Positions 29,980-49,853 of a stretch of 64,000 nt of DNA are shown piece by piece. The stretch covers positions 1 through 64,000 of IMG/VR virus record IMGVR_UViG_3300043788_000060; one strand, given 5' to 3'. The notes under the pieces are model-generated. The model was not told the origin of the DNA. It searched no databases and saw only the letters and a program-made list of their open reading frames with translations. The position numbers were made by a program, and so were the translations under genes. Source of the DNA: a virus. Every line of letters begins with the position of its first letter. Position 1 is the stretch's first letter.

Positions 29980-29983
29980 TTTT

Positions 29984-30067: not shown

Positions 30068-30071
30068 TTTT

Positions 30072-30155
30072 GGAAGTTGCCGCTGTCGTACAGCAAACCG
30101 GTTTGAACCCGGTGGTTCCGCAAGGATAGGGGTTAAACTCCTCCAACTTCCGCCA
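30072..30155 (+). tRNA. tRNA-Ser(TGA), atypical D/T loops
   Basis: ACCGG-TTTGAAC-CCGGT; GCCA end. Confidence 0.75.
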
Positions 30156-30156
30156 T

Positions 30157-30243
30157 GCAAGCGACGTGCTAAGGTAGCCGGGCTCTCTGTAAAAGAGCCG
30201 CCCCTTGTGGGCAGAGCAGTTTCGATTACTGCCGCTTGCACCA
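30157..30243 (+). tRNA. tRNA-Tyr(GTA)
   Basis: GCTCT-CTGTAAA-AGAGC; long variable arm; ACCA end. Confidence 0.8.
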
Positions 30244-30264
30244 GTTTTGTGGTATAATGTCTTA

Positions 30265-30343
30265 TGCGAGCGAGTGGAACGGATCACCATTCAACCCTCA
30301 TAAGGTTGAGATACTTCGGTTCGACTCCGAAGGCACGCACCCA
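30265..30343 (+). tRNA. tRNA-CAT (Met type)
   Basis: CAACC-CTCATAA-GGTTG; one acceptor-stem mismatch; promoter at 30248-30258. Confidence 0.75.
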
Positions 30344-30526
30344 AATTGATGTTAATTCGCGGGTTGGCTACGATCCGGTGGTACCGCCGGGGAGCTTGAA
30401 TACGAATCTCGGTCCTCTATTACCCGTAAAGGATTGATCCGAAGTCGTCGGACACATTTGGTTAAACTCTAACACGACCAACAACGACTTACGAGTGGCA
30501 TCCGGGAGAGACCGGAAAAATTTTAC

Positions 30527-30602
30527 GCGGCTGTAGCTTAATTGACAAAGTCCTTCCTTGTCACGGAAGAGGATACGAGTTTGACTCTCGCCGGTCGCGC
30601 CA
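30527..30602 (+). tRNA. tRNA-Asp(GTC)
   Basis: CTTCC-TTGTCAC-GGAAG; GCCA end. Confidence 0.85.
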
Positions 30603-30609
30603 TTTTCAT

Positions 30610-30688
30610 GGGGTAGTTGGCAAGTTGGTTTAAGCCACCACTTTCTCACAGTGGTTATGCGTGAGTTCGAACCTCACCTACCCTGCCA
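30610..30688 (+). tRNA. tRNA-Glu(CTC)
   Basis: CCACT-TTCTCAC-AGTGG; CCA end. Confidence 0.8.
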
Positions 30689-30737
30689 TACCCGCCGGGA
30701 AATCATAGGTCAGCGTCTAGACGCTGCGGCGGAAAAC

Positions 30738-30814
30738 GCGGTATCAGGGGTGCTGATTCTCCAGACGGTCTTTCAAGCCGTTGGACGCGGGTTTGATTCC
30801 CGCATACCGCGCCA
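30738..30814 (+). tRNA. tRNA-Glu(TTC)
   Basis: ACGGT-CTTTCAA-GCCGT; CCA end. Confidence 0.8.
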
Positions 30815-30835
30815 ATTCAAATAAGGGGAGAGCCG

Positions 30836-31354
30836 TTGAGCAACCCAAAAGATGTAGGAAGAACGGAACGAATCGCAGAAACTGTCCGATTACTCTCGGT
30901 GGCAGATATTGTCCCTCCGTACACAACCTTCGATATTACGGAAGAAATGCTCGCTGAATACATCAGAGTCTATGGTAGTCTCGGACCCAAAGGAAACGGA
31001 AAGTTCCACTACGGGTTCGCTCGTAAGTTAGCTGGGCTAGAGCTTCTTCGGCTCAAGTTTCATAGGGGCGCTAAACCCAAGGATTGCAAAGAAGGCCAAG
31101 TCTACTTAATTGGTAATCCTGCATGGCCGGAGCACATCAAGATCGGAATGTCTGTAGATTCCGACGCTAGGTTGGATTCATACCAGACGTACGATCCATT
31201 TCGCGCCTATTACATCAAAAATTACGAATTTGTCCTCGACAGACGGGCTGCGGAAAAGAAGTTAATAGATGATTTCGGATTTCATCTACTGGAGGGAGAA
31301 TGGGTCAAGTATTCAGACTCTTCCAAGATAATCAAGGCAATTCGAACATTTTAA
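30836..31354 (+). CDS. GIY-YIG superfamily (T5orf172-like) nuclease-domain protein
   Basis: GQVYLIGNPAWPEHIKIGMS.D...RL..YQT..P...AEKKL...GEWV. Confidence 0.75.
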   Translation: MSNPKDVGRTERIAETVRLLSVADIVPPYTTFDITEEMLAEYIRVYGSLGPKGNGKFHYGFARKLAGLELLRLKFHRGAKPKDCKEGQVYLIGNPAWPEHIKIGMSVDSDARLDSYQTYDPFRAYYIKNYEFVLDRRAAEKKLIDDFGFHLLEGEWVKYSDSSKIIKAIRTF

Positions 31355-31359
31355 CACGT

Positions 31360-31435
31360 TGGACGGTCGTATAACTGGTATTACACTTGATTGTTACTCA
31401 AGGCGATGAGAGTTCGAATCTCTCCTGTCCAGCCA
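31360..31435 (+). tRNA. tRNA-Asn(GTT)
   Basis: CTTGA-TTGTTAC-TCAAG; GCCA end. Confidence 0.85.
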
Positions 31436-31442
31436 AATTTAA

Positions 31443-31517
31443 TACCTCGTTCGTTCAGCGGCAGGACCACTGACTCTGACTCAGTTAACGGTGGTTCGAA
31501 TCCATCACGAGGTGCCA
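31443..31517 (+). tRNA. tRNA-Gln(CTG)
   Basis: ACTGA-CTCTGAC-TCAGT. Confidence 0.85.
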
Positions 31518-31593
31518 CGCCAGCGTCGTTCAACGCCAAGGACCTTGAGCTTTGACCTCAAAGATAAAGGTTGGATTCCTTTCGCTGGTGCCA
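31518..31593 (+). tRNA. tRNA-Gln(TTG)
   Basis: TTGAG-CTTTGAC-CTCAA. Confidence 0.8.
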
Positions 31594-31598
31594 TTTTC

Positions 31599-31674
31599 GC
31601 GGGCGTAATTCAATTGGCAGAATGTTGGTGTGCCACACCAGATGTTGCCGGATCGTTGCCGGTCGCCCGCTCCA
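31599..31674 (+). tRNA. tRNA-Gly(GCC)
   Basis: Loop GTGCCAC; TCCA end; atypical T-loop. Confidence 0.8.
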
Positions 31675-31697
31675 TTTCGTCCAGATAATGGACAAAC

Positions 31698-31774
31698 GCA
31701 TCTGTGGCTCAGACGGTACAGCGCGTCCCTCGTAAAGACGTATTTCGCAGGTTCGATTCCTGTCAGATGCTCCA
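31698..31774 (+). tRNA. tRNA-Thr(CGT)
   Basis: Loop CTCGTAA; CCA end. Confidence 0.85.
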
Positions 31775-31775
31775 C

Positions 31776-31851
31776 GCCGGTCAAGCTCATTAGGATGAGC
31801 AATCCCTCGGTAAGGGATAGGCAGTCCGTTCGATTCGGATGATCGGCTCCA
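31776..31851 (+). tRNA. tRNA-Thr(GGT)
   Basis: ATCCC-TCGGTAA-GGGAT. Confidence 0.8.
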
Positions 31852-32197
31852 TTTTAGTAAGAAATTTGTCACACTTTTCTGACAAGTTGTGGTATAATGT
31901 ATTTGTTGGTAGGTAACAGGTATGGTGAGGAGAAAAACCCCTAACCCTGAGCCGAACTTGAAGGACGCTTCGAGATGCCACCAAAATCGGTGCTGAGTTC
32001 CGAAACGGACTCAGATGAGGGACCCAGTATTCAGGTTTGAGGGAAGATACCACCGAAACAAGCTTATGACCCACTATGTTTGTCCAATGTGCGAGAAACC
32101 CGACGGCAAAGAGTACGACGATTTCTTGTCGATTAGCAGCAGAAAAGGAATTTTGAGGTTCTGCGAATTTTGCAAACATACGTGGAGAGAAAAGTTT

Positions 32198-32272
32198 GCC
32201 TCGTAAGCATTGGTGCTGATGCACCGGTCCTGTAAACCGGACAACTCAGTTGAACTCTGAGACGGGGCTCCA
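32198..32272 (+). tRNA. tRNA-Thr(TGT)
   Basis: CCGGT-CCTGTAA-ACCGG. Confidence 0.75.
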
Positions 32273-32359
32273 TACAAGCATCTTGTGACACCTACTCCAG
32301 ATGCGCCTAACTAGGAAGGCTAAGTGGTGTGACTCCCGGGAGAGTACGGACAAATTTAT

Positions 32360-32435
32360 GGTGGGATTGGCCGAGAGATTTAGGCGCGGGACTGTGACCC
32401 CCGATACAGGAGTTTGATTCTCCTATCCTACCCCA
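32360..32435 (+). tRNA. tRNA-His(GTG)
   Basis: Loop CTGTGAC; G-1:C73 pair; CCA end. Confidence 0.8.
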
Positions 32436-32439
32436 AGGT

Positions 32440-32511
32440 GCCAGAAAATTCCGGCTCGAATCCGGACCAACGGGTGCAAACGTTGAGTCGTCTAACGGGA
32501 GGACATCTGGC
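32440..32511 (+). ncRNA. Circularly permuted tRNA-like element
   Basis: Order is GCCAGA, T-arm, capped acceptor-like stem, D-arm, TCTGGC. Confidence 0.55.
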
Positions 32512-32520
32512 TGTATTTTT

Positions 32521-32592
32521 GGGCCGGGCTCCGAAGAGCAGATTTTCCTTGCAAGAAAGTCGCGGTGGGTTTAACTCCCACACGGTCCACCA
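32521..32592 (+). tRNA. tRNA-Ala(TGC), reduced D-arm
   Basis: Loop CTTGCAA; G3:U70 pair; ACCA end. Confidence 0.7.
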
Positions 32593-32646
32593 ATGTATGA
32601 ATGGGACCAACCGCTGCCGAGGCAAGTTGCCCATTCGCCCGTTTTA

Positions 32647-32722
32647 GCCAACTGAGCAAGAGTGGTCTTTGCACCGGCTTGAAGCACCGAGGAGAGGCGT
32701 TCGATTCGCCTAGTTGGCACCA
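32647..32722 (+). tRNA. tRNA-Phe(GAA), weak anticodon stem
   Basis: Acceptor GCCAACT/AGTTGGC; loop TTGAAGC. Confidence 0.7.
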
Positions 32723-32727
32723 TAAAG

Positions 32728-32800
32728 TTTTGCCTTGGTGTAATAGTGAGCACGAAGCCCCATAGGGGTTTATGATCCGGCTAAAATCCGGGAGGCAAAA
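32728..32800 (+). pseudogene. Degenerate tRNA-like cloverleaf without CCA
   Basis: D-, anticodon- and T-like stems present; non-canonical loops. Confidence 0.4.
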
Positions 32801-32808
32801 AGTTTTAT

Positions 32809-32879
32809 CAGTGACTGGGGTAGTGGTCGCCTCCGAGCCTCGGATGCTCGTGGAGAAAGTTCGATTCTTTCGTCGCTGA
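32809..32879 (+). tRNA. tRNA-Pro(CGG), no encoded CCA, abuts the next tRNA
   Basis: CGAGC-CTCGGAT-GCTCG. Confidence 0.75.
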
Positions 32880-32967
32880 CGGGGTGTAAAACCGTAAATA
32901 GAAGCGGTCCTGCTTTGGAAGCAGGAGATTAAGATCACTGGACGTGCAAGTCGTCTCACCCCGACCA
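32880..32967 (+). tRNA. tRNA-Pro(TGG) with enlarged variable region
   Basis: CCTGC-TTTGGAA-GCAGG; acceptor CGGGGTG/CACCCCG; ACCA end. Confidence 0.7.
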
Positions 32968-32972
32968 GTTAT

Positions 32973-33047
32973 GCCCGGTTCGTTCAACGTATAGGACCCA
33001 AGATTGCGAATCTTGAGACAGAAGTTAGACTCTTCTATCGGGCACCA
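32973..33047 (+). tRNA. tRNA-Arg(GCG)
   Basis: CAAGA-TTGCGAA-TCTTG. Confidence 0.8.
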
Positions 33048-33052
33048 TTTAC

Positions 33053-33129
33053 GGCTCTATCGGCAACTGGAAAGTCGATCTCGCTTCGAACGAGAAACAG
33101 TGTAGGTTCGAGTCCTACTAGGGCTACCA
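33053..33129 (+). tRNA. tRNA-Arg(TCG)
   Basis: TCTCG-CTTCGAA-CGAGA. Confidence 0.8.
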
Positions 33130-33130
33130 C

Positions 33131-33204
33131 GCGAGTTTAATTTAGTGCCAGAATGTCGATCTCCAAAATCGAACGCAGGGGTTGAATTCCTCTAACTCGC
33201 GCCA
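33131..33204 (+). tRNA. tRNA-Trp(CCA)
   Basis: TCGAT-CTCCAAA-ATCGA. Confidence 0.8.
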
Positions 33205-33209
33205 TTTTC

Positions 33210-33285
33210 GCCAACGAGGACGAAGCGGATAGTCGCCGCCCTCATAAAGCGGTTGTAGCTGATTCGAGTTCAGCCGTTGGCACCA
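33210..33285 (+). tRNA. tRNA-CAT (Met or Ile2)
   Basis: Loop CTCATAA; ACCA end. Confidence 0.75.
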
Positions 33286-33430
33286 AGTTCAAAGAACAGG
33301 GGCAGAAATGTCAACTGTTCCTAGGCGGATAGAGCGCCCGGTCTAATAGCTGGCACATGGCGAGAGGAAGGAACAGGGTACCTTACGTCGTGCCGCCCTA
33401 TCCGTGACCCATTAGTCCGAATAATGGACT

Positions 33431-33525
33431 GCCGGAATTCTCAGGCGAGACGCTGGGTTTTATAAGCCCGGTTGTTGTCGGTCGATAGCCGATGCGCGAG
33501 AGATCGTCCCTCTCTTCCGGCCCCA
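33431..33525 (+). tRNA. Atypical tRNA with TAT anticodon and long variable arm
   Basis: Acceptor GCCGGAA/TTCCGGC; TGGGT-TTTATAA-GCCCG; T-stem GAGAG/CTCTC; CCA end. Confidence 0.65.
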
Positions 33526-33526
33526 C

Positions 33527-33601
33527 GGGTTGCAAGCTTTGATGGCGAAGCATCCGGCTCTTACCCGGAAGAACAGATTTCGATTATCTGGCAACCCACC
33601 A
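33527..33601 (+). tRNA. tRNA-Lys(CTT)
   Basis: TCCGG-CTCTTAC-CCGGA. Confidence 0.8.
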
Positions 33602-33619
33602 ATTAAAAGTCAACACTGT

Positions 33620-33694
33620 GGGCCTCAAGCTTTAATGGTGAAGCAGTTGGCTTTTAACCTCCAGAACGGGGATCGTTACCCCGGGGGCCCACCA
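33620..33694 (+). tRNA. tRNA-Lys(TTT), weak anticodon stem
   Basis: Loop CTTTTAA; ACCA end. Confidence 0.7.
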
Positions 33695-33701
33695 AGTTTA
33701 T

Positions 33702-33779
33702 GCGCCAGTGGCTCGAAATGAACTAGGCCCCGAGCTTCTACCTCGGAGTATGCAGGTTTGAATCCTGTCTGGCGTTCCA
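33702..33779 (+). tRNA. tRNA-Arg(TCT)
   Basis: CCGAG-CTTCTAC-CTCGG. Confidence 0.8.
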
Positions 33780-33997
33780 TTTTGCGCAGGACCTCATCGT
33801 TGGCCCAGCAGAGATTTTGATATCCACGGGGTCTCACAGAAAGTAACCTGCGCAAATTTTTTCGAGGAGTTCAGATGAAAGTTGAATTCGCTTTTATGAA
33901 ACCTTGGTCCGGGATTTGGGTCGGGTTTCTCTGGGACGAACAAGTTAACGGATTATATATTAGTTTGTTACCTCCGTTTGTCATCAAGTTTCTATTT

Positions 33998-34073
33998 GGT
34001 CCCGTAGCTCAAGAGAACAGAGCGGTAGTTTCCTAAACTTCAGACCCGAGTTTAAGTCTCGGCGGGACCCCCA
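33998..34073 (+). tRNA. tRNA-Arg(CCT)
   Basis: Loop TTCCTAA; CCA end. Confidence 0.8.
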
Positions 34074-34163
34074 AGTTTGTGTGGTTAGCGAGGGAAGGGC
34101 AAGCTCCACCTCCCAAAGCGTTTGATGAGCAAAGGTAACAACAAACATCCACACAAAGTTTTT

Positions 34164-34238
34164 GCAGACGTAGTGAAACGGACATAATAAAACCCTCCGA
34201 AGGTTTAGTTGGCAGTTCGAATCTGCCCGTCTGCACCA
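34164..34238 (+). tRNA. tRNA-Arg(CCG)
   Basis: AAACC-CTCCGAA-GGTTT. Confidence 0.85.
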
Positions 34239-34395
34239 TGTTTGTAACAGCAGCGAGAAATCGCAGGTAGGAACGCCCTTTCTGAGCGGTCAGCCGTCGT
34301 CCCGAGGCTTCCCATAATGGACCGGTGGGACATCACACAGATGTTAAACGCCCGCTATAATTTCGGGGCACTCAGAATCTGTTACAATTCGTTTT

Positions 34396-34473
34396 GCCGG
34401 GTTAACTCAGTCTGCTCAGAGTGCCTCTCTTACAAAGAGGAAGCCGAAGGTTGGAATCCTTCACCCGGTACCA
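34396..34473 (+). tRNA. tRNA-Val(TAC)
   Basis: CCTCT-CTTACAA-AGAGG. Confidence 0.85.
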
Positions 34474-34478
34474 TATTT

Positions 34479-34556
34479 CCCAGAGTAGCTCAAGTGGCTC
34501 AGAGCACTCGACCGATAATCGAGAGGTTGGGGATTCGATTACCCCCTCTGGGACCA
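34479..34556 (+). tRNA. tRNA-Ile(GAT)
   Basis: CTCGA-CCGATAA-TCGAG. Confidence 0.85.
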
Positions 34557-34668
34557 TACAATTTATTTGCAGAATACTTGTGTATTGGCTTTCTGATGTC
34601 AAGAGCCGAATACGACAGCACATGGCAGTGCATAATAAATCGTCCTGCAAATGAGACATCAAATTTTC

Positions 34669-34746
34669 GCGGCCATAGCCAAGTCTGCTAAGGCAATAGT
34701 CTTCCAAACTATCATCACGCGGGTTGGAATCCCGCTGGCCGCTCCA
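34669..34746 (+). tRNA. tRNA-Gly(TCC)
   Basis: ATAGT-CTTCCAA-ACTAT; TCCA end. Confidence 0.85.
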
Positions 34747-38851: not shown

Positions 38852-40945
38852 ATGACGAGTAATTTTGACGAGATCGTATCCCAATTTGGAAAACCGTCTG
38901 AAATTCCTCACGATGTTTTGTATGAGTTTCTTGCGGCCAACAAGCAGAACATCGTCAATATGTCCAAATTGGGGGCCGACCATGTTCCCAATTCCTTGTT
39001 AGGTAGGGAAGTTCGGAGAAGAAGTCAGGCCGATCTCAAGTGGCTATCCAAATATTTTTTGTGGGATGCCTTATCCGCCAGCGACGGTGGAACCAAGCCA
39101 ATAAGTGAGAACATCTTCCTCGACCCTGTCTACGACATCTTTTCTGAGTTATTTGTCAAGAAAGACCCCAATGTTGCAATACAGGATTTGAGCCCAGTTA
39201 AGACTCGTCTTTTGCTGTGGCCCAGAGGCGGGGCAAAAAGCACTTACGACTGCATTGATACGGCTCAATGGATTCTCTGCTTTCCGACAATAAGAATCCT
39301 ATTTCTGACAGGCGAAGCCACTCTTTCGAAAGGTTTCATTTCAGAGCTAAAAGGCGTTTTTTCGCTGCGTGAGGAAGAACCCACTCTGATCAATTTGTTC
39401 TTCCCTGAGCACTGTTGCTTGCTGAAGGACATGGGCGCTGGAAATGTCTTTACAACACCAGCCTACAAGAAGAAGAAAACGGGACGCAAAGAACCCACAG
39501 TTGTAGCCTCTTCGGTTGGAAAGACAAAAAGCGGTTGGCATTACGAAGTCATCAAGGCCGACGACGCCGTTTCAGACAAGAATACAGAGACTTTGGAACA
39601 ATGCGTTTCGGTTTCTGAAAAACTATTCCTTGCTGAGAAACTTCTGATCCCCGGTGGATATTACAAAGATTACGTAGGAACTCGCTATGCCGAGGAAGAC
39701 CACTACGGCGTTCTGCTCGAAAAGTATCTAACCGTAGGAAAGATAGAAACTATCTCAGGAGTAGGCTGGGTTTTCACCCACAACGACACCTTCAACATCA
39801 ATATCTTGGTTGGACGGGCCTGTCAGATCAAATCGGAAGTCGAAGACAGACTCCGCAGAGAAGGTAAGATTGTAAATTACATAGAGGCGGGAGAAGATGG
39901 CTGTATCCTGCTCCTGCCTTTGAAGCAGCCCTACTCGTGGTTGATGGGTGAATTTACCAACAACGAGAAAGTTTTTGAAGGCCAGCTAAATCAGAATCCT
40001 AGAATCGCCAGTCAACGCGGCTTCAATCGAATCTCTCTTATCAAAGCCACAATTCCCTACAACATGCTCCCCCGGACCGGTCCTGTTTCGCAATTCTGGG
40101 ATTTGAGTTTTAGCCAAAAGAAGGGCACCGATTACTGCGTGGGTAGTTCGGTCATGTGGGGGGAAGAAGATGTCATCGATCTTCAAGGAAAGAAGACAGG
40201 CGGGAAGAAAACCGTCGGTTACGTCCGCAAGATAATTCGGGATCGGTTTAACCCGTTTACAGCCGCCCAAGCTATTGTCCAATTAGTTGTCGAGGAACGT
40301 CCTTTTGTTCTGGGCATCGAAGACGCGGGCGGCTCGAAGAACCTCGAACCGGCTATTCAGGCCGAGGCGTATAAGACCCAAGATTCGCACGTTATCGCAG
40401 TTTGTACCCACATCAATTGGGTAACCCCAAGTAACCAATTCGACGCCAAGCGAATTCGTATGGGCAGTTTGATTCCGTGGGTTGAAGAAGGCAGACTAAA
40501 ATTCGCCAACTTCTGCATGGAGCCAAAATACCCTACATTAGACATAATGTACGAGGAATTCATCGCTTGTCTGTCGAGTCATCATCACGATGACATTCCG
40601 GACAACTTGGGGTACCAACCGCTGTACGCCCCCCAAGCAACCCAAGCGATTGTCGAAAATAATGTCAGCATGTTTTACCGGGTCGATCAGCAAGGTTGGG
40701 GTCAGATTTACGATCAAGGATTTAATCCAGACGCCGGATCGGTCTACACTTTGGGCAATGACGGCAGTTTGCAACCCCACCAGAGAACTCAGGCCACGAA
40801 ATATATGCTGGATGACAGCGGCAAATTAGTTCCTTTGGATGAACCGTACCAACCAATCAATGATGATTGGTCGCCGGAGCCTGAAGTCAGGGGAGATACC
40901 CCGTATCAGATGCCAAATGTCTTGGGGATTGGAATTTTTGGATGA
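38852..40945 (+). CDS. Terminase large subunit
   Basis: LLLWPRGGAKST (Walker A variant), HYEVIKADD (Walker B), VGTRY, nuclease FWDLS...DY and HHDDIPD. Confidence 0.88.
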   Translation: MTSNFDEIVSQFGKPSEIPHDVLYEFLAANKQNIVNMSKLGADHVPNSLLGREVRRRSQADLKWLSKYFLWDALSASDGGTKPISENIFLDPVYDIFSELFVKKDPNVAIQDLSPVKTRLLLWPRGGAKSTYDCIDTAQWILCFPTIRILFLTGEATLSKGFISELKGVFSLREEEPTLINLFFPEHCCLLKDMGAGNVFTTPAYKKKKTGRKEPTVVASSVGKTKSGWHYEVIKADDAVSDKNTETLEQCVSVSEKLFLAEKLLIPGGYYKDYVGTRYAEEDHYGVLLEKYLTVGKIETISGVGWVFTHNDTFNINILVGRACQIKSEVEDRLRREGKIVNYIEAGEDGCILLLPLKQPYSWLMGEFTNNEKVFEGQLNQNPRIASQRGFNRISLIKATIPYNMLPRTGPVSQFWDLSFSQKKGTDYCVGSSVMWGEEDVIDLQGKKTGGKKTVGYVRKIIRDRFNPFTAAQAIVQLVVEERPFVLGIEDAGGSKNLEPAIQAEAYKTQDSHVIAVCTHINWVTPSNQFDAKRIRMGSLIPWVEEGRLKFANFCMEPKYPTLDIMYEEFIACLSSHHHDDIPDNLGYQPLYAPQATQAIVENNVSMFYRVDQQGWGQIYDQGFNPDAGSVYTLGNDGSLQPHQRTQATKYMLDDSGKLVPLDEPYQPINDDWSPEPEVRGDTPYQMPNVLGIGIFG

Positions 40946-41779: not shown

Positions 41780-43855
41780 ATGGCGATACTTCCGGAACCA
41801 CAATTTAATGTCCATTCGGAGATTACTCCGAAAGAGGCAAAAGGATTTGTCGCTACTGGCGTATGGGCCGATGACCCAGCCGCTAAACTTGTGGTTCAAG
41901 ATGCCGAGAGAGCGGAAAAAGGAGAGCAGAGCCGCGCTTGGATAATGGCGTGGCAATCGGCTTCCACCCTCTATCAGTCACCTTTTTCGCCACGCTACTG
42001 GCCGGGGACGCAATCTGAAGCTGCCTCAATTAGCTTCTTCACGGTTGCCTGCGCGGTAAATGGAATCAATCCACAAGCCCTTGCGGGTTTATTCTATGAA
42101 AATCCGCCCTTTATGATACAAGAGCGCAGCGGAACAACCGCACAAGCTGCCCGCGCTGTATCTGCATTACTTCAGTATCAACTCGAAGATATCAATTTCA
42201 GAGAAGAACTGAGACTGGGTTCGATGAACTGTCTGCTTTTTGGAACAGCGATGTTCCAAGAAGGCTGGGAAAAGTTTACCTGCGAACGGAAGATCATCAA
42301 GAGGAAAAACCCCTCGGTTAAAATCCCGAGTTCGATTCCCGGGGTGCCTTCGTCTACAATCTCGGACGATGAGCTAGAAGAAGAAGTAATTGAAGAGGTC
42401 GTAGACCGGCCCACCTTCGAGCACATCGTAAATCTCAGAGAAGTTCTCGTCGATCCGGGTTTGCAAGTTCCGGATATCCGCAAGGCGAAGTACGTTGTCC
42501 GTCGTCGGTACATGACATGGGATGACCTCGACAAACTTCGCGACCGAGACGGATATACAATTCCTTCCCGGGACAAATTGATCGAACTGTTCCTGCCCCC
42601 GCAGGAACCAGTAGAGCCAGCCCTAAATGAAGAAGGCGGACGCAACCCGCTTTGGGAAGCAAAAGCCGAACCACGTTGGGAACCAACCACCGTCGATCCG
42701 ACTCAGCAACCATTAGAAGTCTTAGAACGGTGGGACAACAAAACCTACATCGTAGTCCTTCAAAAGAAGGTCGTGATTTTCAACGACCGGAATGTCTATG
42801 GTAAGATTCCGTTTCTCTCAATCGGCTGGTGGGATATCCCCGGTGCTTTTTGGTCGATGGGGCTGGGCCGTACTATCGGAACAGAGCAAAGACTCCAGTC
42901 CGGAATTACCAACCTTGTAATTGACAACGCCTCGCTGAACCTGAACATGCCGATGGTTCGCGTCCGTGGAAAATCGATCCCGACCCAGAACATCAGAATC
43001 GGTCCGGGCAAGATCATCGAAGTCGATGCTCAAGGAGACATGGCTCCGCTTATGCGGTCGGCCCCAGTCCCCGAGGCAGGTGAACTTCTGGCTATGTCCC
43101 AAGGCCGCGTGGACATGGTGTCCGGAAACCCGGTTACCTCAAGAGGCGACGTAGGCTCAAGCGGTCACTCCAACATGGCCCGTAGTTCCGCCGGGGCATC
43201 CGGAATTCTGGCAGGAGCGAACACCCCGATTTCGGATTTCATCGACAAACTTGCTAACCAAGTTATCATACCGTTCCTATATGATTGTCAAGAGATGAAC
43301 CGGTCGATGCTGCCGCTAAGTCAGCTTGACTACATCATGTCCGACGAGTTGAAACACGAGTATGTCACAAACGGCGGGGACCTGATTGACATCCTGAACG
43401 CCAAGGTGAAGTTCCAAATTCTGGCGGGCAGCAAAATGACTACTCGCCGGAACATGGCTCAGGGTCTACCACAACTTACAGCTTTTCTCGCCCAACCCGC
43501 TGTCTTAGAACAGCTAGCGGTAGAGGGAAAGAAAGTCGATGTAAACGAAATTGTAAGGATGTGGTTCGAGGCATCCGAGTGGAAGAACATGAACGACGTA
43601 GTCGTCCCGATGACCCCGCAGGACTTGCAGAGACAGCAGCAACAAAGTCAAGGAGGTCAGAATGAGCAGAAGTTCTTGCAGCAGCAGGCATTGATCGCGC
43701 AGAAAGCACAACTTCAATCTCAACAGGCAGATGCGGACAATATTGCAAGGGCCAGCAGGGACGTTTTAAGGGAAGGCTTTAAAAAGGCAGTCGAACCGGA
43801 GGAATTAACAGGAGAGGTAAATACCTCTGGTTCCGGCTTCGGAAGCGTACTATAA
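41780..43855 (+). CDS. Portal protein
   Basis: 691 aa, between terminase and scaffold; P22-like pattern (VDP, FWSMGLG..I..EQ, IGPGKII) and Gln-rich C-terminal helix. Confidence 0.8.
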   Translation: MAILPEPQFNVHSEITPKEAKGFVATGVWADDPAAKLVVQDAERAEKGEQSRAWIMAWQSASTLYQSPFSPRYWPGTQSEAASISFFTVACAVNGINPQALAGLFYENPPFMIQERSGTTAQAARAVSALLQYQLEDINFREELRLGSMNCLLFGTAMFQEGWEKFTCERKIIKRKNPSVKIPSSIPGVPSSTISDDELEEEVIEEVVDRPTFEHIVNLREVLVDPGLQVPDIRKAKYVVRRRYMTWDDLDKLRDRDGYTIPSRDKLIELFLPPQEPVEPALNEEGGRNPLWEAKAEPRWEPTTVDPTQQPLEVLERWDNKTYIVVLQKKVVIFNDRNVYGKIPFLSIGWWDIPGAFWSMGLGRTIGTEQRLQSGITNLVIDNASLNLNMPMVRVRGKSIPTQNIRIGPGKIIEVDAQGDMAPLMRSAPVPEAGELLAMSQGRVDMVSGNPVTSRGDVGSSGHSNMARSSAGASGILAGANTPISDFIDKLANQVIIPFLYDCQEMNRSMLPLSQLDYIMSDELKHEYVTNGGDLIDILNAKVKFQILAGSKMTTRRNMAQGLPQLTAFLAQPAVLEQLAVEGKKVDVNEIVRMWFEASEWKNMNDVVVPMTPQDLQRQQQQSQGGQNEQKFLQQQALIAQKAQLQSQQADADNIARASRDVLREGFKKAVEPEELTGEVNTSGSGFGSVL

Positions 43856-45287: not shown

Positions 45288-46436
45288 ATGGCAAAACCTG
45301 TAATCGATCCGTGGCTTCTAAACGCCGACGGAACCCCAGACCCCTTTTCACAAGCCGTAGACTACGGCATGACCGCGAAAGACGAAGTCGATCCGGACCT
45401 ACAACCTATTGAACCGCACGGCGGGCTCGATCCACAGATCATCGCCAACCAGCCACCAGCCCCGAGCGAAGAAACACCAGTAGAAACACCGCCCGCTCCC
45501 GTCGTTGAACCGGAGCCAGAAGGTCCCGAAGTTTTCGAACTGCCGAACGGCGGCACGGTAACCCGCACCAAGGAAAAAGGACAATGGAAGGCCGTCCTCG
45601 ACCCGGGCACCGGAGCAAACCCCGAAGTATTCTGGGGCAAGAACAAGGATGAGCTTTTGGTAAGCGTACTCACGGGGAAGCTAGAGGCTACCAAAAAGAT
45701 TAGGGAGTTGAACAAAAAGGTAAAGCTGACCGCTCCCGCTGCTCCGAGACAAGTTCAACAGCCGCCCCAACCGTCTGTCCGCGATCTTACCGCCGACGAA
45801 TCATTTGAGATCAAGGCCCTCTGGGACTCAAACCCCGCCGCCGCCCTCGATCTTCTTGTCAAAAAGCGGACAAACCTCACTCTTGAAGACTTGGTGGCAA
45901 AAGCCAATAGGGGCGACCAAGCCAACATCAGTCTGGAAACCGAGGCAATTACTCGGGAATTCATCGAAAAGAATCCAGACTACTACACTGACCCAAGGAA
46001 CGCCGATGCGTTTCTCAAATGGTTGGCAAAATTCAAACTCGGCAAGAACGTCACGGAAACCAACTCGGGAGAAATACTTACCGAACTTTGGACATCCGGT
46101 AACTTCACTGTCGAAAATCTTGAGGAAGCGTTCCAAGACCTGACCGACGATGGATTATTGGTCAAGCCACGTCTTCCCAAAACACCTCCGCCGGTAGAGG
46201 TTCTACCAGAACCGGTACCTGCGCCAGCGCCCCCGAACACACGGATTGTGAAGACGGAGACGCGCCCGCGAGCGGCACTAGGAATCAGGAACAGCGATGT
46301 ATCAGCTACACCGCCTCCTCAAACTCCGACTGCGCCCACAGACGAGGACCTAGAGAATCTTCCTGACGAACAGATCAGCGCATTGCTGAGAGGCGTTCGC
46401 AAGATGAAAGCTCAACAGGCCCGGCGCTCTAACTAA
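45288..46436 (+). CDS. Capsid scaffolding protein (putative)
   Basis: Acidic, Pro-rich and helical; directly upstream of the capsid gene; strong RBS. Confidence 0.7.
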   Translation: MAKPVIDPWLLNADGTPDPFSQAVDYGMTAKDEVDPDLQPIEPHGGLDPQIIANQPPAPSEETPVETPPAPVVEPEPEGPEVFELPNGGTVTRTKEKGQWKAVLDPGTGANPEVFWGKNKDELLVSVLTGKLEATKKIRELNKKVKLTAPAAPRQVQQPPQPSVRDLTADESFEIKALWDSNPAAALDLLVKKRTNLTLEDLVAKANRGDQANISLETEAITREFIEKNPDYYTDPRNADAFLKWLAKFKLGKNVTETNSGEILTELWTSGNFTVENLEEAFQDLTDDGLLVKPRLPKTPPPVEVLPEPVPAPAPPNTRIVKTETRPRAALGIRNSDVSATPPPQTPTAPTDEDLENLPDEQISALLRGVRKMKAQQARRSN

Positions 46437-46452: not shown

Positions 46453-46670
46453 ATGAGTTACTCTCCTACAAGTATCGTCACGAGCGGGGCGCTTCCGAAC
46501 TTAGTCGCAATTCACTATGAGCGCGAAGCTGTTCCCAACCTCAAGGCGCAAACTCCTTTCCTTTCCATGACCAAGCAGCGTCCGCTGCCGTTGCGGCAAG
46601 GTAACCAGATTCAGTTCTACACCTACGCGATCTTGGCTGCAAACCTGAACCAAGCCGCTGAGGGAACCGT
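46453..46670 (+). CDS. Major capsid protein (N4-gp56-like), exon 1
   Basis: MSYSP...PLPLRQGNQIQFYTY...AAEGT(V); ends at the U of a group I P1 helix. Confidence 0.8.
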
Positions 46671-47730
46671 GAATAAACCTGCGGTTCTAAAATTCGCCCA
46701 AATCCGTCAATACCTGTTTGCAGAAGCCGCCTAGTGTGGTATAATGTGAATAGACAAGACGGAGGAAAATTCTTGCGAAGCGACATCCATCCCAAGCGTT
46801 GGGCTTTCATAGCCGGTCTAATTGACGGTGATGGAAGTTTCAGTATCCGATATGACAAAGAGTCCGGATATCAATTAACTGTTAACATATATTCGACATC
46901 GAGAAATCTGATGAACTGGTTGGTCAAGCTGATTGGTGGCCAGTATCGAAAGATGCCTACGAAGGGCAATCGTAAACAGCGGTATGCTTGGTATTCAGGG
47001 AATTCAGAAATTCCCACCAATGTTGCTCCGTATCTCATTCTCAAGAAAAGTCAGGCAGAGTCTTCCGTTCTATTCTTTAATCTTGGCTCAGAGAGAAATC
47101 CTCAAGCTAGAGAAGAATTGATGAGAGACATTCAAAATGCTAATGACTTTTATGTACCAGCCAATAAAAAAGATGTACAGGATAGTCGAAAAAATCCGAT
47201 AGAACCCACCAAACTGGATTGGGCCTATCTCTCCGGATTGTTTGATGCTGAGGGGTCTTTCGGCCTCCAAAGGCGCAGCAAAAAGGGCAACGGTTCCTAT
47301 ACATCTTACGCACGAATTTCAAACACAGATAATCGGGTATTCTTGTGGATCGCGCCCCGCTTCGGCGGTCGGTTTTCGGTTACTACCAAGGAACACGATA
47401 AAGATGAAGGCGCATGGACGTTGTCCGGCTCCATCGGTTTAGAAGGAAGAAAAGATCGAGAGAACAAACTCTTGGCTTTGGTTCCTTATCTGGTTGCTAA
47501 GAAAGAACGTGCGGTGCTCTTTATGGAGTGGATTAGAAATAACCACCTATTGACCAAAGAGCAAAAATTGGATTATTTTCTGAGAATGAAGGCGTTGAAC
47601 AAACGCGGAATCTCTCTAGAGACTAATACGGCGAACTGTCCAGAAAATGGACAGATGATAGAGTCCGATCCTGATAGCGATATCAGGTGCGACCCAGCAG
47701 TGATGTTGGAGTCCTAAAACACAAATAAGG
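46671..47730 (+). mobile_element. Group I intron 1 with LAGLIDADG ORF (3' end at 47727 or 47730)
   Basis: P1 GGAACCGU/GCGGUUCU with U-G at the splice site; core GAGACTAATACGGCGAA...GATAGAGTCC. Confidence 0.8.
46773..47717 (+). CDS. Double-motif LAGLIDADG homing endonuclease
   Basis: WAFIAGLIDGDGSF and WAYLSGLFDAEGSF; TTG start after GGAGG; own promoter at 46735-46745. Confidence 0.9.
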   Translation: MRSDIHPKRWAFIAGLIDGDGSFSIRYDKESGYQLTVNIYSTSRNLMNWLVKLIGGQYRKMPTKGNRKQRYAWYSGNSEIPTNVAPYLILKKSQAESSVLFFNLGSERNPQAREELMRDIQNANDFYVPANKKDVQDSRKNPIEPTKLDWAYLSGLFDAEGSFGLQRRSKKGNGSYTSYARISNTDNRVFLWIAPRFGGRFSVTTKEHDKDEGAWTLSGSIGLEGRKDRENKLLALVPYLVAKKERAVLFMEWIRNNHLLTKEQKLDYFLRMKALNKRGISLETNTANCPENGQMIESDPDSDIRCDPAVMLES

Positions 47731-48334
47731 AAGCCCGATCTCCGAATCGAGCACCAAGATCGTTGCTACCATCGGGCAGTATGCCGATTTTATCAACAGT
47801 TCTGACTTGGCTCTCGACGTAGCAATCGACGATCCGGGTTTGCTCCAGAATCTGGCAAACGAACTCAACTACCGGCTTGCTCTTACCCTCAACTCTCTTG
47901 TCCAGATCACAGCGGACTCGGCAGTTGCGGTGGACTCGCTGGTCAACACACAACTGGCCAACGGCTCGTATCTGACGGCGAACAACCTTCGTTCGGCAGT
48001 TCAGTCGCTGGTATCGGTCAACGCACGGCCTCTCGTAAATAACTCCTACGGTGGAATCATTCACCCGAACGTGGTACGAGACATCCTCAACGACACGTCT
48101 TTCAATGGTCTAACCGACATTGTAAAGCGCGATCCTGAGATGGCGAAGATGCTGTACGAACTCCCGAAGAATGATGATGTTATCAAGTTCGCCGGGGTCA
48201 CGTTCAAGCAAACAAGCACTGCGCCGACGGTGACCATCAGTTCGAACACGTATTACAACACTTACATCTTCGGGGACGACGCGATTTTCAGCGTCTTCTT
48301 GGGCAAGAATCCCGAGGATGGATCGAAGAACTAT
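47731..48334 (+). CDS. Major capsid protein, exon 2
   Basis: SPISESSTKIVATIGQYADFINSSDLALDVAIDDP...GIIHPNVVRDI...TYIFGDDA...GSKNY. Confidence 0.8.
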
Positions 48335-48552
48335 TTGCAAAAAGTAGCTTGAGCGGGCAACTGCTCTCGAACAGACCGTAAATTCGGTGGAACCCTCACA
48401 GAGGCAATACCGAGCCAAGTCGCGAAAGCGGAAGGTGTAGAGACTAGAGACGGTCCTCCCTATGGGATGATAGTATAGTCCGGACTGCACAGCGATGTGC
48501 AGAGGCAAACAGAAATGATTTGCCCGTCCGAATAATGGACAGTAACAAAACG
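48335..48552 (+). mobile_element. Group I intron 2 (218 nt, no ORF)
   Basis: P1 CUAU/GUAG; AATTCGGTGGAA, AATACCGAGCCAAG, GTAGAGACTA, ATAGTCC; terminal G; removal restores the frame. Confidence 0.85.
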
Positions 48553-48606
48553 AAACTCTTCATCCAGAGTGCGCCTGAGCAGGGAAGTGTAAGTGATCCA
48601 GCACGT
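48553..48606 (+). CDS. Major capsid protein, exon 3 (54 nt)
   Basis: KLFIQSAPEQGSVSDPAR. Confidence 0.8.
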
Positions 48607-48828
48607 CAACTTTAGGCGTCACTAAGGCGAAATCCTTAGAAGAAAATTCTATCTAATTGACTTGGAAGCTGAGAAGCCAACAAGGCGGAACCCAGAAATC
48701 GGGACCGTGAGAGACTAAACGATAGAACACCCTTTGGGGTGATGCGATAGTCCGGCCTCATACGAAATGAAGTATGAGAGGTGTGCAGAAATGACGCACC
48801 CCGTCCATTTTAGACGAGTAACATTCCG
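48607..48828 (+). mobile_element. Group I intron 3 (222 nt, no ORF)
   Basis: P1 ACGU/GCGU; AATTGACTTGGAA, AACAAGGCGGAA, GAGAGACTAAACG, GATAGTCC; terminal G. Confidence 0.85.
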
Positions 48829-48933
48829 CAAATTGGAGGCTGGGTTTCTTACAATGTACGGTACACAAACACTTTGCGTCCGGGCAGCACAATGACGCTA
48901 AGACGTTTGCAATCAGAGACATCCAGTTCATAG
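48829..48933 (+). CDS. Major capsid protein, exon 4
   Basis: QIGGWVSYNVRYTNTLRPG...SSS*; the junction SDPARQIGGW resembles the N4-gp56 SDPxxQxG motif. Confidence 0.8.
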   Translation, partial: QIGGWVSYNVRYTNTLRPGSTMTLRRLQSETSSS

Positions 48934-49073
48934 GAGTCTTTGAAAAAATAGTTTCGAAATTCTTTACACAAAGCCATTAAACTGTGGTATAATGTATTTG
49001 AGTTTCGAAATTCAAACCGGGAAGGGCGGTACCTCACTACCGCCCAACTCGACTCATGTGAGGATGAGAGAAC

Positions 49074-49853
49074 ATGTATTACATCTATTTGGTAACGAAT
49101 AAAGTCAACGGAAAGATTTATGTTGGTCAGACTGGGTTGACCATAGAGGAACGTTTTAAAAGTCACATCTGGTCTCGGAACAAGGACGATCATTTTCATG
49201 CGGCAATCCGAAAGTATGGAGAAGACGCTTTCGTCATCCAAGAGTTGGGCAAGTTCGAATCTCTCGAAGAAGCCAACAACGCAGAATCTTTGTGGATAAT
49301 CTCCCTTCGATCCTACGACAGCAAAATTGGCTACAACACGAAATTTGGTGGCGAAAACGGAGGAGCCCCCACCGAAGAAACAAGAATCAAAATCGGATTA
49401 GCAAGCAGCCAAAGAGTTCATGCTGCTGAGACTCGGGAAAAGATGCGAAATTCTCATCTCAAACGCCAAGGAAAAACTACTTCCCACGAGGGAGTGGGGG
49501 TTTTTAAAGGACGTTTTCGGGCGAGAATCAAGATTCACGGAAAAGAAATTTCTTTGGGACAACACGATACCATTGAAGAGGCGGTTGAGTTTCGAAAAAA
49601 GAGTTTAGAACGGCTGAGCCAAATCGGACTAGAAGCTTTCACGGGAGAACTAGAAATCTTCCGTAAAGAAGTAAACAAGAAAAGAATCGCAAACCGGCCT
49701 CACAGAGGACCTTTATCTGACGAAGAAAAGGAACAGATTAGTATTCGCACCAAGAAACGATGGGCGAAGAACTTTAATTGGATGGACGCTCAATTCGTTT
49801 CTCCCTTTGTAACGGACGCCCAAACCCAGCAGAACGATCAGGTTGCATCATGA
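49074..49853 (+). CDS. Free-standing GIY-YIG homing endonuclease with NUMOD3-like and AP2-like DNA-binding segments
   Basis: YIYLVTNKVNGKIYVGQT...RFKSH...GYN; ETR.K repeats; GV...GRFRARIKIHGKEISLG.HDTIEEA; promoter at 48983-48993. Confidence 0.88.
   Translation: MYYIYLVTNKVNGKIYVGQTGLTIEERFKSHIWSRNKDDHFHAAIRKYGEDAFVIQELGKFESLEEANNAESLWIISLRSYDSKIGYNTKFGGENGGAPTEETRIKIGLASSQRVHAAETREKMRNSHLKRQGKTTSHEGVGVFKGRFRARIKIHGKEISLGQHDTIEEAVEFRKKSLERLSQIGLEAFTGELEIFRKEVNKKRIANRPHRGPLSDEEKEQISIRTKKRWAKNFNWMDAQFVSPFVTDAQTQQNDQVAS

What the first reader, a model, noticed from the sequence alone, without database searches (positions are those of the whole stretch)
46453..48933. Major capsid gene interrupted by three group I introns, including two compact introns around a 54-nt exon
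Seen: four exons join in frame to give a 326-327-aa N4-gp56-like capsid protein. Each intron has a P1 U-G splice pair and P7 core sequences. Introns 2 and 3 are only 218 and 222 nt with no ORF. Established: phage group I introns mostly occupy nucleotide-metabolism and replication genes, so three in the most abundant structural gene is unusual. Automated annotation would call this gene fragmented. Inference: splicing could gate capsid production.
Basis: partly seen in the sequence, partly recalled or inferred. Interest (0 to 1): 0.75.

Follow-up and report, generated by a model that had tools for sequence, protein, structure and literature searches.

The report
Capsid gene split by three introns
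The major capsid gene of this 110-kb soil phage is broken into four pieces by three self-splicing group I introns, and relatives carry none to eight such introns at about 35 positions in the same gene, making it an exceptional hot spot for selfish mobile introns.

Summary
Four exons (46453-46670, 47728-48334, 48553-48606, 48829-48933) join into a 327-aa HK97-fold capsid protein. It is colinear with intronless 327-328-aa homologues, and every junction peptide is conserved.

All three interruptions are group I introns. Each has a U·G pair in P1 and a P3/P7 pseudoknot core, with strong covariation in relatives (96-98% of cells paired, against 29-42% in slid controls).
- Intron 1 (1057 nt) carries a LAGLIDADG homing endonuclease.
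- Introns 2 (218 nt) and 3 (222 nt) have no ORF.
- Intron 3 occurs only where an orthologue of the downstream free-standing GIY-YIG endonuclease (49074-49853) is present (4/4 against 0/42). This fits collaborative homing.

The gene is a hot spot. Forty-nine distinct complete relatives carry 0-8 introns of one family at about 35 sites. That family was found only in this gene.

One oddity remains. Intron 1 and three diverged relatives end in A where the sister lineage has the canonical terminal G.

No evidence supports splicing as a "gate" on capsid production; selfish mobility explains the data better. Single capsid-gene introns and three-intron phage genes are already published, so this is a new variant of a known kind. 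No RNA evidence of splicing was obtained.

The parts
46453..46670 (+). MCP exon 1 (codons 1-72 plus GU of Val73). An AAGGAG ribosome-binding site lies just upstream. Its last 8 nt, GGAACCGU (46663-46670), form the 5' strand of P1.
46671..47727 (+). Intron 1, a 1057-nt group I intron. Guide: CCU (46678-46680, P10) followed by GCGGUUCU (46681-46688, P1). P7 is 47619-47624 with 47662-47666. P8 hairpin 47637-47655. P9 47668-47685. The last base is A47727, where seven sister sequences have G. The alternative 3' end is G47730.
46734..47717 (+). Double-motif LAGLIDADG homing endonuclease ORF inside intron 1. The likely start is TTG 46773, after GGAGG. The promoter-like TGTGGTATAATG lies at 46735-46746. 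The 3' end of the ORF overlaps the P7-P9 ribozyme core.
   Evidence: (PF00961, 46.8 bits against a cut-off of 23.1)
47728..48334 (+). MCP exon 2 (third base of Val73 to Tyr275). It would start at 47731 if G47730 is the intron's last base.
48335..48552 (+). Intron 2, a 218-nt ORF-less group I intron at CDS nt 825. P1 is 48328-48334 with 48344-48350. P7 is 48440-48446 with 48476-48481. The P9.2 hairpin at 48526-48540 is a copy of the genome-wide 15-nt motif. The terminal G is 48552.
48553..48606 (+). MCP exon 3, a 54-nt micro-exon (KLFIQSAPEQGSVSDPAR).
48607..48828 (+). Intron 3, a 222-nt ORF-less group I intron at CDS nt 879. P1 is 48603-48606 with 48616-48619. P7 is 48711-48717 with 48748-48753. 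The terminal G is 48828.
48829..48933 (+). MCP exon 4 (QIGGWVSYNV...SSS, with the stop codon).
49074..49853 (+). Free-standing GIY-YIG homing endonuclease gene, 140 nt after the MCP stop, preceded by TGTGGTATAATG (48983-48994). It is the candidate trans-acting endonuclease for intron 3.
   Evidence: (PF01541, 41.2 bits against 22.6)

Best explanation
The capsid gene carries three self-splicing group I introns that must be removed from the late mRNA to make the 327-aa capsid protein. They are selfish mobile elements rather than a regulatory device.

Intron 1 is a classical mobile intron. Its own LAGLIDADG endonuclease, made from a promoter and ribosome-binding site inside the intron, would cut intronless capsid alleles of co-infecting relatives at CDS nt 218. 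Repair would then copy the intron in.

Intron 3 has no ORF. It travels as a cassette with the free-standing GIY-YIG endonuclease gene 245 nt downstream. This is collaborative (trans) homing: the endonuclease cuts alleles that lack the intron, and the intron protects its own genome.

Intron 2 is an ORF-less member of the same intron family. It either rides along by co-conversion (it lies 54 nt from intron 3) or is a relic of earlier homing.

What is shown: exon structure, ribozyme architecture with covariation, endonuclease domains, co-occurrence statistics and the family-wide hot spot. What is inferred: actual splicing, endonuclease target sites and the homing pathway.
For: 1. The joined exons are colinear with intronless homologues, and all junction peptides are conserved.
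2. In 49 distinct complete relatives, removing the inferred introns always restores a stop-free 324-329-aa ORF. Of 147 interruptions, 125 have a best-scoring junction of exon-U | ... G-intron.
3. Covariation supports group I architecture, including the P3/P7 pseudoknot:
- intron 2 family: 98.1% of cells paired, 34 of 59 pairs compensatory, slid controls 34-40%;
- intron 3 subfamily: 96.5%, 41 of 53;
- intron 1 3' domain: 95.7%, 14 of 26.
4. P1 guide sequences change with the insertion site (helix 1).
5. LAGLIDADG and GIY-YIG domains score above the Pfam cut-offs. Both genes sit behind the recurrent promoter-like motif TGTGGTATAATG, which occurs 12 times against 0.14 expected.
6. Orthologues of the GIY-YIG gene (66-90% identity) lie 139-155 nt downstream of the MCP stop in 4 of 4 loci with the site-879 intron and in 0 of 42 without it (Fisher 6e-6). 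Those four loci otherwise have different intron sets. Site-879 introns are 94% identical to each other, against 74% for site-825 introns, which suggests recent spread.
7. Relatives with at least 97% identical capsid proteins carry quite different intron sets, so turnover is fast.
8. Collaborative homing is an established pathway (PMC3984707).
Against: - No direct RNA evidence. Metatranscriptome contigs that join across intron 1 and intron 2 come from 85-95% identical relatives, so they cannot be told apart from intronless alleles.
- No intron reaches Rfam's gathering score.
- Intron 1 lacks the canonical terminal G, so its splicing may be inefficient or may use another site.
- The 4/4 against 0/42 association is not corrected for shared ancestry.
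- No endonuclease can be assigned to intron 2.
Confidence: 0.85

Rival explanations
1. Arms-race or competition reading (compatible with the best explanation). The introns and endonucleases are weapons and shields between co-infecting related phages. Each endonuclease cuts the essential capsid gene of rivals, and each intron disrupts a target site in its own genome. Repeated rounds have filled the gene with introns.
For: - About 35 insertion sites and 0-8 introns per gene, with LAGLIDADG ORFs of at least three similarity classes (23-35%, 58-83% and 100% identity to the window's) in introns at many sites.
- Different GIY-YIG genes lie downstream of different 3'-proximal introns.
- The intron family was found only in this gene, both in the whole genome and in the ±4-kb flanks of 80 loci.
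- An intron endonuclease that mediates phage-phage interference has been published (PMC11620839).
Against: No fitness or co-infection data exist. Purely selfish super-Mendelian spread predicts the same pattern.
Confidence: 0.4
2. Intron 1 does not end at A47727 but at G47730. After the terminal G mutated to A, the next in-frame G was adopted as the 3' splice site, so the capsid protein has 326 aa and lacks Gly74.
For: - A terminal G is near-universal in group I introns.
- The G-binding pair of P7 (G47621-C47665, next to bulged A47620) is unchanged between the A-ending and G-ending lineages.
- G47730 gives an in-frame product in all four A-lineage sequences.
Against: - In the alignment the A sits exactly in the terminal-G column..ARU-A|A-GGN against ..ARU-G|N-GGN.
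- AGG 47728-47730 pairs with CCU 46678-46680, right next to P1, as a P10. Nothing pairs with the alternative exon start.
- No homologue is shorter between the EG and QY motifs: none of 55 diverse homologues and none of about 47 alleles.
- A natural intron that lacks the canonical terminal G has been published for Coxiella 23S rRNA (Raghavan 2007). Only the title was seen, in the reference list of PMC11270868.
Confidence: 0.4
3. One reading: splicing is a regulatory gate that times or limits capsid production.
For: - Splicing is obligatory for capsid synthesis.
- The introns carry copies of a genome-wide 15-nt hairpin motif that could bind a phage factor.
Against: - Close relatives make the same protein with no introns, or with different ones, so no particular intron is needed.
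- No conserved regulatory feature specific to these introns was found.
Confidence: 0.1
4. The interruptions are not introns. They could be assembly chimeras, a decayed gene, inteins or a genuinely split gene.
For: The window comes from a metagenome assembly. Gene callers report the pieces as separate proteins.
Against: - The same introns at the same sites occur in many independent contigs from different samples.
- Ribozyme covariation is strong.
- The inserts contain stop codons and are not in frame, so they cannot be inteins.
- Exons 2-4 have no start codons or ribosome-binding sites of their own.
Confidence: 0.02

Closest known systems
Capsid-gene group I introns of mycobacteriophage LittleE (Cluster J) and lactococcal phage Tuc2009
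   Same: A group I intron lies in the major capsid gene, with exon-U and intron-G ends. LittleE's intron carries a LAGLIDADG-like ORF and was shown by RT-PCR to be spliced (PMC3706429).
   Different: Those genes have one intron each. Here there are three (up to eight in relatives), two of them ORF-less and compact, around a 54-nt exon.
Staphylococcus phage Twort orf142, and Bastillevirinae DNA polymerase and terL genes
   Same: One phage gene holds two or three group I introns, and exon skipping is possible between neighbouring introns (Landthaler & Shub 1999, cited in PMC6669764 and PMC11878797).
   Different: The host gene class differs. No comparable family-wide spread to about 35 sites within a 1-kb gene has been reported.
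Jug (jumbo gut) phage introns
   Same: Many compact (about 206 nt) ORF-less group I introns split essential genes, including terL, alongside many stand-alone homing endonucleases. Metatranscriptomes supported splicing (PMC12880540).
   Different: Jug introns are spread over many genes of a 360-400-kb genome (18.5 per genome). Here one intron family was found in a single gene of a 110-kb phage and nowhere else.
Collaborative (trans) homing: cyanophage psbA intron with F-CphI, and T7-like phage ΦI DNA polymerase intron (Zeng 2009 and Bonocora & Shub 2009, reviewed in PMC3984707)
   Same: An ORF-less intron and a free-standing endonuclease gene next to the interrupted gene occur together.
   Different: Cleavage at the intron insertion site is untested here. 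The endonuclease is I-TevI-like GIY-YIG (TIGR01453, 47.6 bits, below the 56.05 cut-off).
[quoted passage not shown]
   Same: Two group I introns flank a tiny exon (34 bp there, 54 nt here), and one intron lacks the canonical terminal G (title of Raghavan et al. 2007, J Bacteriol 189:6572).
   Different: That is an rRNA gene of a bacterium. Here the gene is protein-coding and phage-borne, and A-ending and G-ending sister lineages of the same intron coexist. I could not read the paper itself, so details beyond its title come from memory.

Membership tests
Group I intron | The last exon base is U and forms a U·G wobble with the internal guide sequence in P1. | tested here: met
   - Intron 1: GGAACCGU with GCGGUUCU.
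- Intron 2: GAACUAU with GUAGCUU (one A·C mismatch).
- Intron 3: ACGU with GCGU.
The U·G pair is invariant in relatives, and P1 covaries with the insertion site.
Group I intron | The last base of the intron is G. | tested here: not met
   Met for intron 2 (G48552) and intron 3 (G48828). Not met for intron 1 at the homologous position: A47727, shared with L069, L070 and L091, whereas seven sister sequences have G.
Group I intron | A conserved core of helices P3-P9 with the P3/P7 pseudoknot, kept by compensatory changes. | tested here: met
   - 98.1% of cells paired, 34 compensatory pairs.
- 96.5%, 41 pairs.
- 95.7%, 14 pairs (3' domain of intron 1 only).
- Slid controls: 29-42%.
Group I intron | A G-binding G-C pair in P7 next to a bulged nucleotide. 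| tested here: met
   All three introns have GAGACUA paired with UAGUCC or GAGUCC, with a bulged A and invariant G-C pairs.
Group I intron | Reaches the Rfam RF00028 gathering score of 50 bits. | tested here: not met
   The scores are 47.6, 20.8 and 20.5 bits. The single Rfam model fits compact phage introns poorly. An HMM of the family gives E 1e-42 to 4e-10.
Group I intron | Guanosine-dependent self-splicing. | not testable with these tools
   The only RNA data are contigs from relatives, which are ambiguous.
LAGLIDADG homing endonuclease | Pfam LAGLIDADG domain above its cut-off, with two motifs (monomeric type). | tested here: met
   PF00961 scores 46.8 bits against 23.1, and PF14528 scores 38.4 against 22.5. 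Two motifs are visible in the translation, LIDGDGSF and LFDAEGSF.
GIY-YIG homing endonuclease (I-TevI-like) | An N-terminal GIY-YIG domain, and the NCBIfam 'group I intron endonuclease' model. | tested here: inconclusive
   PF01541 scores 41.2 bits against 22.6, so the domain is met. TIGR01453 scores 47.6 bits, below its cut-off of 56.05. PHROG 314 'homing endonuclease' matches at 1e-29.
N4-gp56 family major capsid protein (HK97 fold) | The TIGR04387 equivalog score, and an HK97-like fold closest to N4 gp56. | tested here: inconclusive
   TIGR04387 scores 39.9 bits, below its cut-off of 60. The AlphaFold model of the 88%-identical homologue P0004 has pLDDT 82.6, and its top Foldseek hit is the phage N4 capsid, 9e99, E 3.4e-15, TM 0.62, 12% identity. 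The fold criterion is met; sequence-family membership is only distant.
Collaborative (trans) homing pair | A free-standing endonuclease gene lies beside the gene and co-occurs with an ORF-less intron. | tested here: met
   4 of 4 against 0 of 42, Fisher 6e-6.
Collaborative (trans) homing pair | The endonuclease cuts the intronless allele at or near the intron insertion site. | not testable with these tools
   This needs a cleavage assay.

The most novel reading that the evidence does not exclude
Intron 1 and its relatives L069, L070 and L091 form a stable natural lineage of group I introns. On this reading they splice accurately with A instead of G as the last base, although the G-binding pocket is unchanged, and a strengthened P10 (AGG with CCU, abutting P1) helps them do so. 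They sit inside a capsid gene that is the arena of an intron/endonuclease arms race. That gene has about 35 insertion sites and up to eight full introns. In relatives it also holds 40-59-nt pieces with no catalytic core that carry only the P1 and P10 guide and a terminal G, and these would have to borrow a neighbouring intron's catalytic core.
Probability: 0.4. Interest if true: 0.8.

Novelty: new variant of a known kind. Interest (0 to 1): 0.68.

Why it matters
- **Annotation.** Automatic gene callers report this capsid gene as unrelated fragments. Dozens of such fragments are already in protein databases as separate 'proteins'. Soil-phage capsid counts and marker-gene surveys are distorted as a result.
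- **Intron biology.** The family offers a natural series: one intron family that has re-targeted its guide sequence to about 35 sites in a 1-kb gene, with and without endonucleases. That makes open questions directly testable: how group I introns move to new sites, how ORF-less introns and free-standing endonucleases team up, and whether such elements serve in phage-phage competition.
- **Ribozyme mechanism.** The A-ending lineage, beside G-ending sisters with the same G-binding pocket, is a ready-made test of how strict the terminal-G rule really is.

Tried and rejected
- **Rfam at gathering threshold** found no intron. They appeared only at the E-value threshold.
- **Other introns in this genome.** RF00028 and the family HMM, run over all 110,256 bases, found only the three capsid introns. 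Other intron families would be missed.
- **RNA evidence.** One search for sequencing runs and one lay of reads. Two metatranscriptomes hold related sequence, and contigs join 46670 to 47735 and 48334 to 48556. However, they are 85-95% alike and carry relatives' codons, so they may be intronless alleles. No contig covered 47727 at high identity. This is no evidence either way.
- **Change of G-binding specificity in the A-ending lineage.** P7 is identical in both lineages, so this was rejected.
- **Ribosomal bypassing** (as in T4 gene 60) as the explanation for the 40-59-nt pieces in relatives. Take-off and landing codons do not fit, and Trp298 would be lost; only a U|...G| junction restores the protein. 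Rejected.
- **Papers.** The Coxiella papers (PMC2045182, PMC3187410) are not held, so only the title could be cited.
- **Subgroup assignment** (IA, IB, IC) was not possible with the single Rfam model. There is only one hairpin (P8) between P3' and P7', so the compact introns lack the P7.1/P7.2 helices typical of subgroup IA2.
Full report
**What the window is**

The window is bases 1-64000 of a 110,256-bp IMG/VR virus record rated 100% complete by CheckV. Around the finding lie a large terminase gene (38852-40945), a portal gene (41780-43855) and a 382-aa ORF of no known family (45288-46436). Then come the interrupted capsid gene and a GIY-YIG gene. The only cultured relative found is Tunturiibacter (Acidobacteriota) phage Tunturi_3, whose major head protein is 38.7% identical over exon 2. 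One 75%-identical homologue comes from a Candidatus Sulfotelmatobacter MAG. Sequencing runs that hold related sequence are soil, peat, wetland and lake metagenomes (small shares, so no habitat claim).

tblastn with the intronless Tunturi_3 protein finds three of the four exons in order. MAFFT of the joined exons with nine intronless 327-328-aa homologues is colinear from Met1 to the C-terminal SSS.
- Exons: 46453-46670, 47728-48334, 48553-48606 and 48829-48933.
- Joined product: 984 nt, 327 aa, 88% identical to P0004.
- Junction peptides conserved in every intronless homologue: EGTV|GSPIS, KNY|KLFIQ, DPAR|QIGG.

The protein is a distant N4-gp56-type capsid protein.
- TIGR04387 scores 39.9 bits (cut-off 60).
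- PHROG 1357 is 'major head protein'.
- An AlphaFold model of P0004 (pLDDT 82.6) finds the phage N4 capsid 9e99 as its best Foldseek hit (E 3.4e-15), followed by other HK97-fold capsids.

**The three inserts are group I introns**

Rfam RF00028 matches each of them, but below its gathering score: 47.6, 20.8 and 20.5 bits. Comparative data are much stronger.

A search of IMG/VR with P0004 returned 80 loci. I chained tblastn hits and scored every possible junction against the protein.
- 147 interruptions were found.
- 125 of them have a best-scoring junction in which the exon ends in U and the insert ends in G.
- In 49 distinct complete genes, removing the inserts always restores a stop-free ORF of 324-329 aa.
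- 64 distinct compact inserts (189-237 nt) align as one family, with conserved GAGACUA...AUAGUCC (P7), AGAAAUGA and AGUAACA...G elements.

Covariation was tested on structures that I named myself:

| Alignment | Sequences | Cells paired | Compensatory pairs | Slid controls |
|---|---|---|---|---|
| Site-825 introns (intron 2) | 11 | 98.1% | 34 of 59 | 34-40% |
| Intron 3 subfamily | 17 | 96.5% | 41 of 53 | 34-42% |
| Intron 1, 3' domain (P7, P8, P9, P9.1) | 11 | 95.7% | 14 of 26 | 29-42% |

All three structures include P7; the two full-intron structures (rows 1 and 2) also include P3, which with P7 forms the pseudoknot. In the intron 3 subfamily, P1 covaries with the exon sequence between insertion sites.

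In the window, P1 is:
- intron 1: GGAACCGU with GCGGUUCU;
- intron 2: GAACUAU with GUAGCUU;
- intron 3: ACGU with GCGU.

Each has U·G at the splice site.

**Endonucleases**

Intron 1 holds a two-motif LAGLIDADG ORF (PF00961, 46.8 bits). It sits where the compact family has its P6a hairpin loop, and its 3' end overlaps P7-P9.

A free-standing GIY-YIG gene (PF01541, 41.2 bits) starts 140 nt after the capsid stop.

Both genes are preceded by TGTGGTATAATG. This extended -10-like motif occurs 12 times in the window, against 0.14 expected. The LAGLIDADG ORF also has GGAGG seven bases before a TTG at 46773.

**Intron 3 and the GIY-YIG gene travel together**

Close orthologues of the GIY-YIG protein (66-90% identity, full length) lie 139-155 nt downstream of the capsid stop in WIN, L056, L065 and L082. 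These are exactly the testable loci with an intron at CDS nt 879. None of 42 other distinct loci with enough downstream sequence has such an orthologue (Fisher 6e-6).

The four loci otherwise carry different introns:
- WIN: 218, 825
- L056: 96, 163, 744, 791, 832
- L065: 163, 728
- L082: 548, 747

The site-879 introns are 94% identical to each other. This is the signature of collaborative homing (PMC3984707), though cleavage is untested and shared ancestry is not corrected for. Other, distantly related GIY-YIG genes sit downstream of genes with other 3'-proximal introns (sites 928-954).

**The capsid gene is a hot spot**

- About 35 insertion sites are occupied across the relatives.
- Among the 49 distinct complete genes, 20 have no intron and 29 have one to eight. 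L074 has eight hits to the ribozyme HMM; L056 and L067 have six each.
- Relatives whose capsid protein is at least 97% identical to the window's carry quite different sets: L008 only 915, L027 only 825, L070 218/747/832/908, L065 163/728/879. Gain and loss therefore outpace exon divergence.
- The family HMM hits nothing else in the 110-kb genome. In the 80 loci with ±4-kb flanks, all 187 hits lie on the coding strand in or right at the capsid gene.
- blastn shows that the P4-P6 core resembles sequences in T7-like phages of Ralstonia, Klebsiella, Vibrio and Pelagibacter (77-83% over about 70-85 nt). The ribozyme type is therefore widespread in phages.

**The odd 3' end of intron 1**

The intron ends ...AAAUA|A GGA AGC. 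Seven distinct sister sequences at the same site end ...ARUG|N GGN (L055/L066, L094, L059, L095, L074/L096, L093/L098, L097). Four diverged sequences end ...ARUA|A GGN (WIN, L070, L069, L091/L092). The LAGLIDADG proteins of L069 and L070 are 79% and 66% identical to the window's. P9 and P9.1 show compensatory changes within the A group. So this is a maintained lineage, not an assembly error.

Evidence that A47727 is the true end:
- It occupies the terminal-G column of the alignment.
- AGG 47728-47730 can pair with CCU 46678-46680, directly next to P1, as P10.
- None of 55 diverse homologues and none of about 47 alleles is one residue shorter between the EG and QY motifs.

Evidence for the alternative, G47730, which gives an in-frame loss of Gly74:
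- The terminal-G rule is strong.
- P7 is unchanged between the two lineages.

A natural intron without the canonical terminal G has been reported for Coxiella 23S rRNA (Raghavan 2007); I saw only the title. I put A47727 at about 0.55-0.6. A cDNA sequence would settle it.

**Interpretation**

The patchy distribution, the endonucleases and the cassette behaviour fit selfish homing elements, possibly sharpened by phage-phage competition (PMC11620839). Nothing points to a regulatory gate, because near-identical capsid proteins are made from genes with no introns or with other introns. Splicing itself is inferred. The RNA contigs that bridge the introns come from relatives and could be intronless alleles.

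**Novelty**

Capsid-gene introns (LittleE, Tuc2009; PMC3706429), three-intron phage genes (Twort; Bastillevirinae, PMC11878797) and swarms of compact introns (Jug phages, PMC12880540) are all published. The window's gene is therefore a new variant of a known kind. I did not find the following described:
- confinement of one intron family to one 1-kb gene at about 35 sites;
- the A-ending lineage beside G-ending sisters;
- in relatives, 40-59-nt pieces with no catalytic core that carry only a P1/P10 guide.

**Earlier notes of this scan**

Earlier notes had already raised the A ending with the P10 argument, the promoter and ribosome-binding site inside intron 1, and the 15-nt genome motif in intron hairpins. 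I checked each here.
- The motif GTCCGAATAATGGAC (up to 2 mismatches) occurs 40 times in the window, against 0.17 expected.
- One copy is the P9.2 hairpin of intron 2.
- A relative of the motif, GTCCAGAAAATGGAC, forms P8 of intron 1. The exact motif forms P8 in L069 and L091.
- 24 of 99 distinct introns in relatives carry the motif.

Noticed in passing
L055:4898-4937, L045:4954-4999, L042:5121-5165, L060:4958-5003, L066:4900-4958, L083:4851-4906, L074: about 5321-5367: Relatives carry pieces of 40-59 nt at capsid CDS nt 891/892. These are far too short for a ribozyme core, yet the ORF is intact only if they are removed exactly at U|...G|. Each carries a complete guide. A P10 strand (ACCC(A), or CACU in L042) is complementary to the start of the next exon. 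A P1 strand (GUCCACCU, GCCCUCC or GCCUCCGA) is complementary to the end of the previous exon, with U·G at the splice site. P10 covaries in L042. A full compact intron starts 17-38 nt downstream. They may be non-autonomous mini-introns spliced by a neighbour's catalytic core. I found no description of such elements.
   Followed up: partly
window 1451-60201 (40 sites), e.g. 48526-48540, 19898-19912, 21677-21691: The 15-nt hairpin motif GTCCGAATAATGGAC (up to 2 mismatches) occurs 40 times against 0.17 expected, mostly oriented with transcription. One copy is P9.2 of intron 2. Two more lie inside the HDV-like and hammerhead ribozyme matches. In relatives' flanks it occurs 51 times on the capsid strand and 5 times on the other. 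It looks like an RNA-level module of unknown role.
   Followed up: partly
window 7582-52210 (12 sites), incl. 46735-46746 and 48983-48994: The extended -10-like motif TGTGGTATAATG occurs 12 times against 0.14 expected. It precedes both homing endonuclease genes and lies near the tRNA region. It is probably a promoter class used throughout the phage.
   Followed up: partly
window 19884-19955(-), 21352-21406(-), 21633-21701(-): Three small self-cleaving ribozyme matches above Rfam gathering scores lie within 2 kb on the minus strand: HDV-F-prausnitzii type (48.7 bits), twister-P5 (61.9 bits) and hammerhead II (42.5 bits).
   Followed up: no
window 29085-34743(+): A block of 26 tRNA genes (Rfam RF00005 matches above the gathering score).
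   Followed up: no
L064, L073, L076-L079 at capsid CDS nt 555; L045-L049 near nt 908-930: Six loci have 252-819-nt inserts at CDS nt 555 whose best junction ends in A rather than G; the 648-819-nt ones hold LAGLIDADG-like ORFs. These may be further non-G ends, or my junctions may be off. In L045-L049, what I first counted as one 438-nt insert is really two tandem introns (sites 908 and 930) around a 22-nt micro-exon (RYTNTLR).
   Followed up: partly
   Followed up: partly
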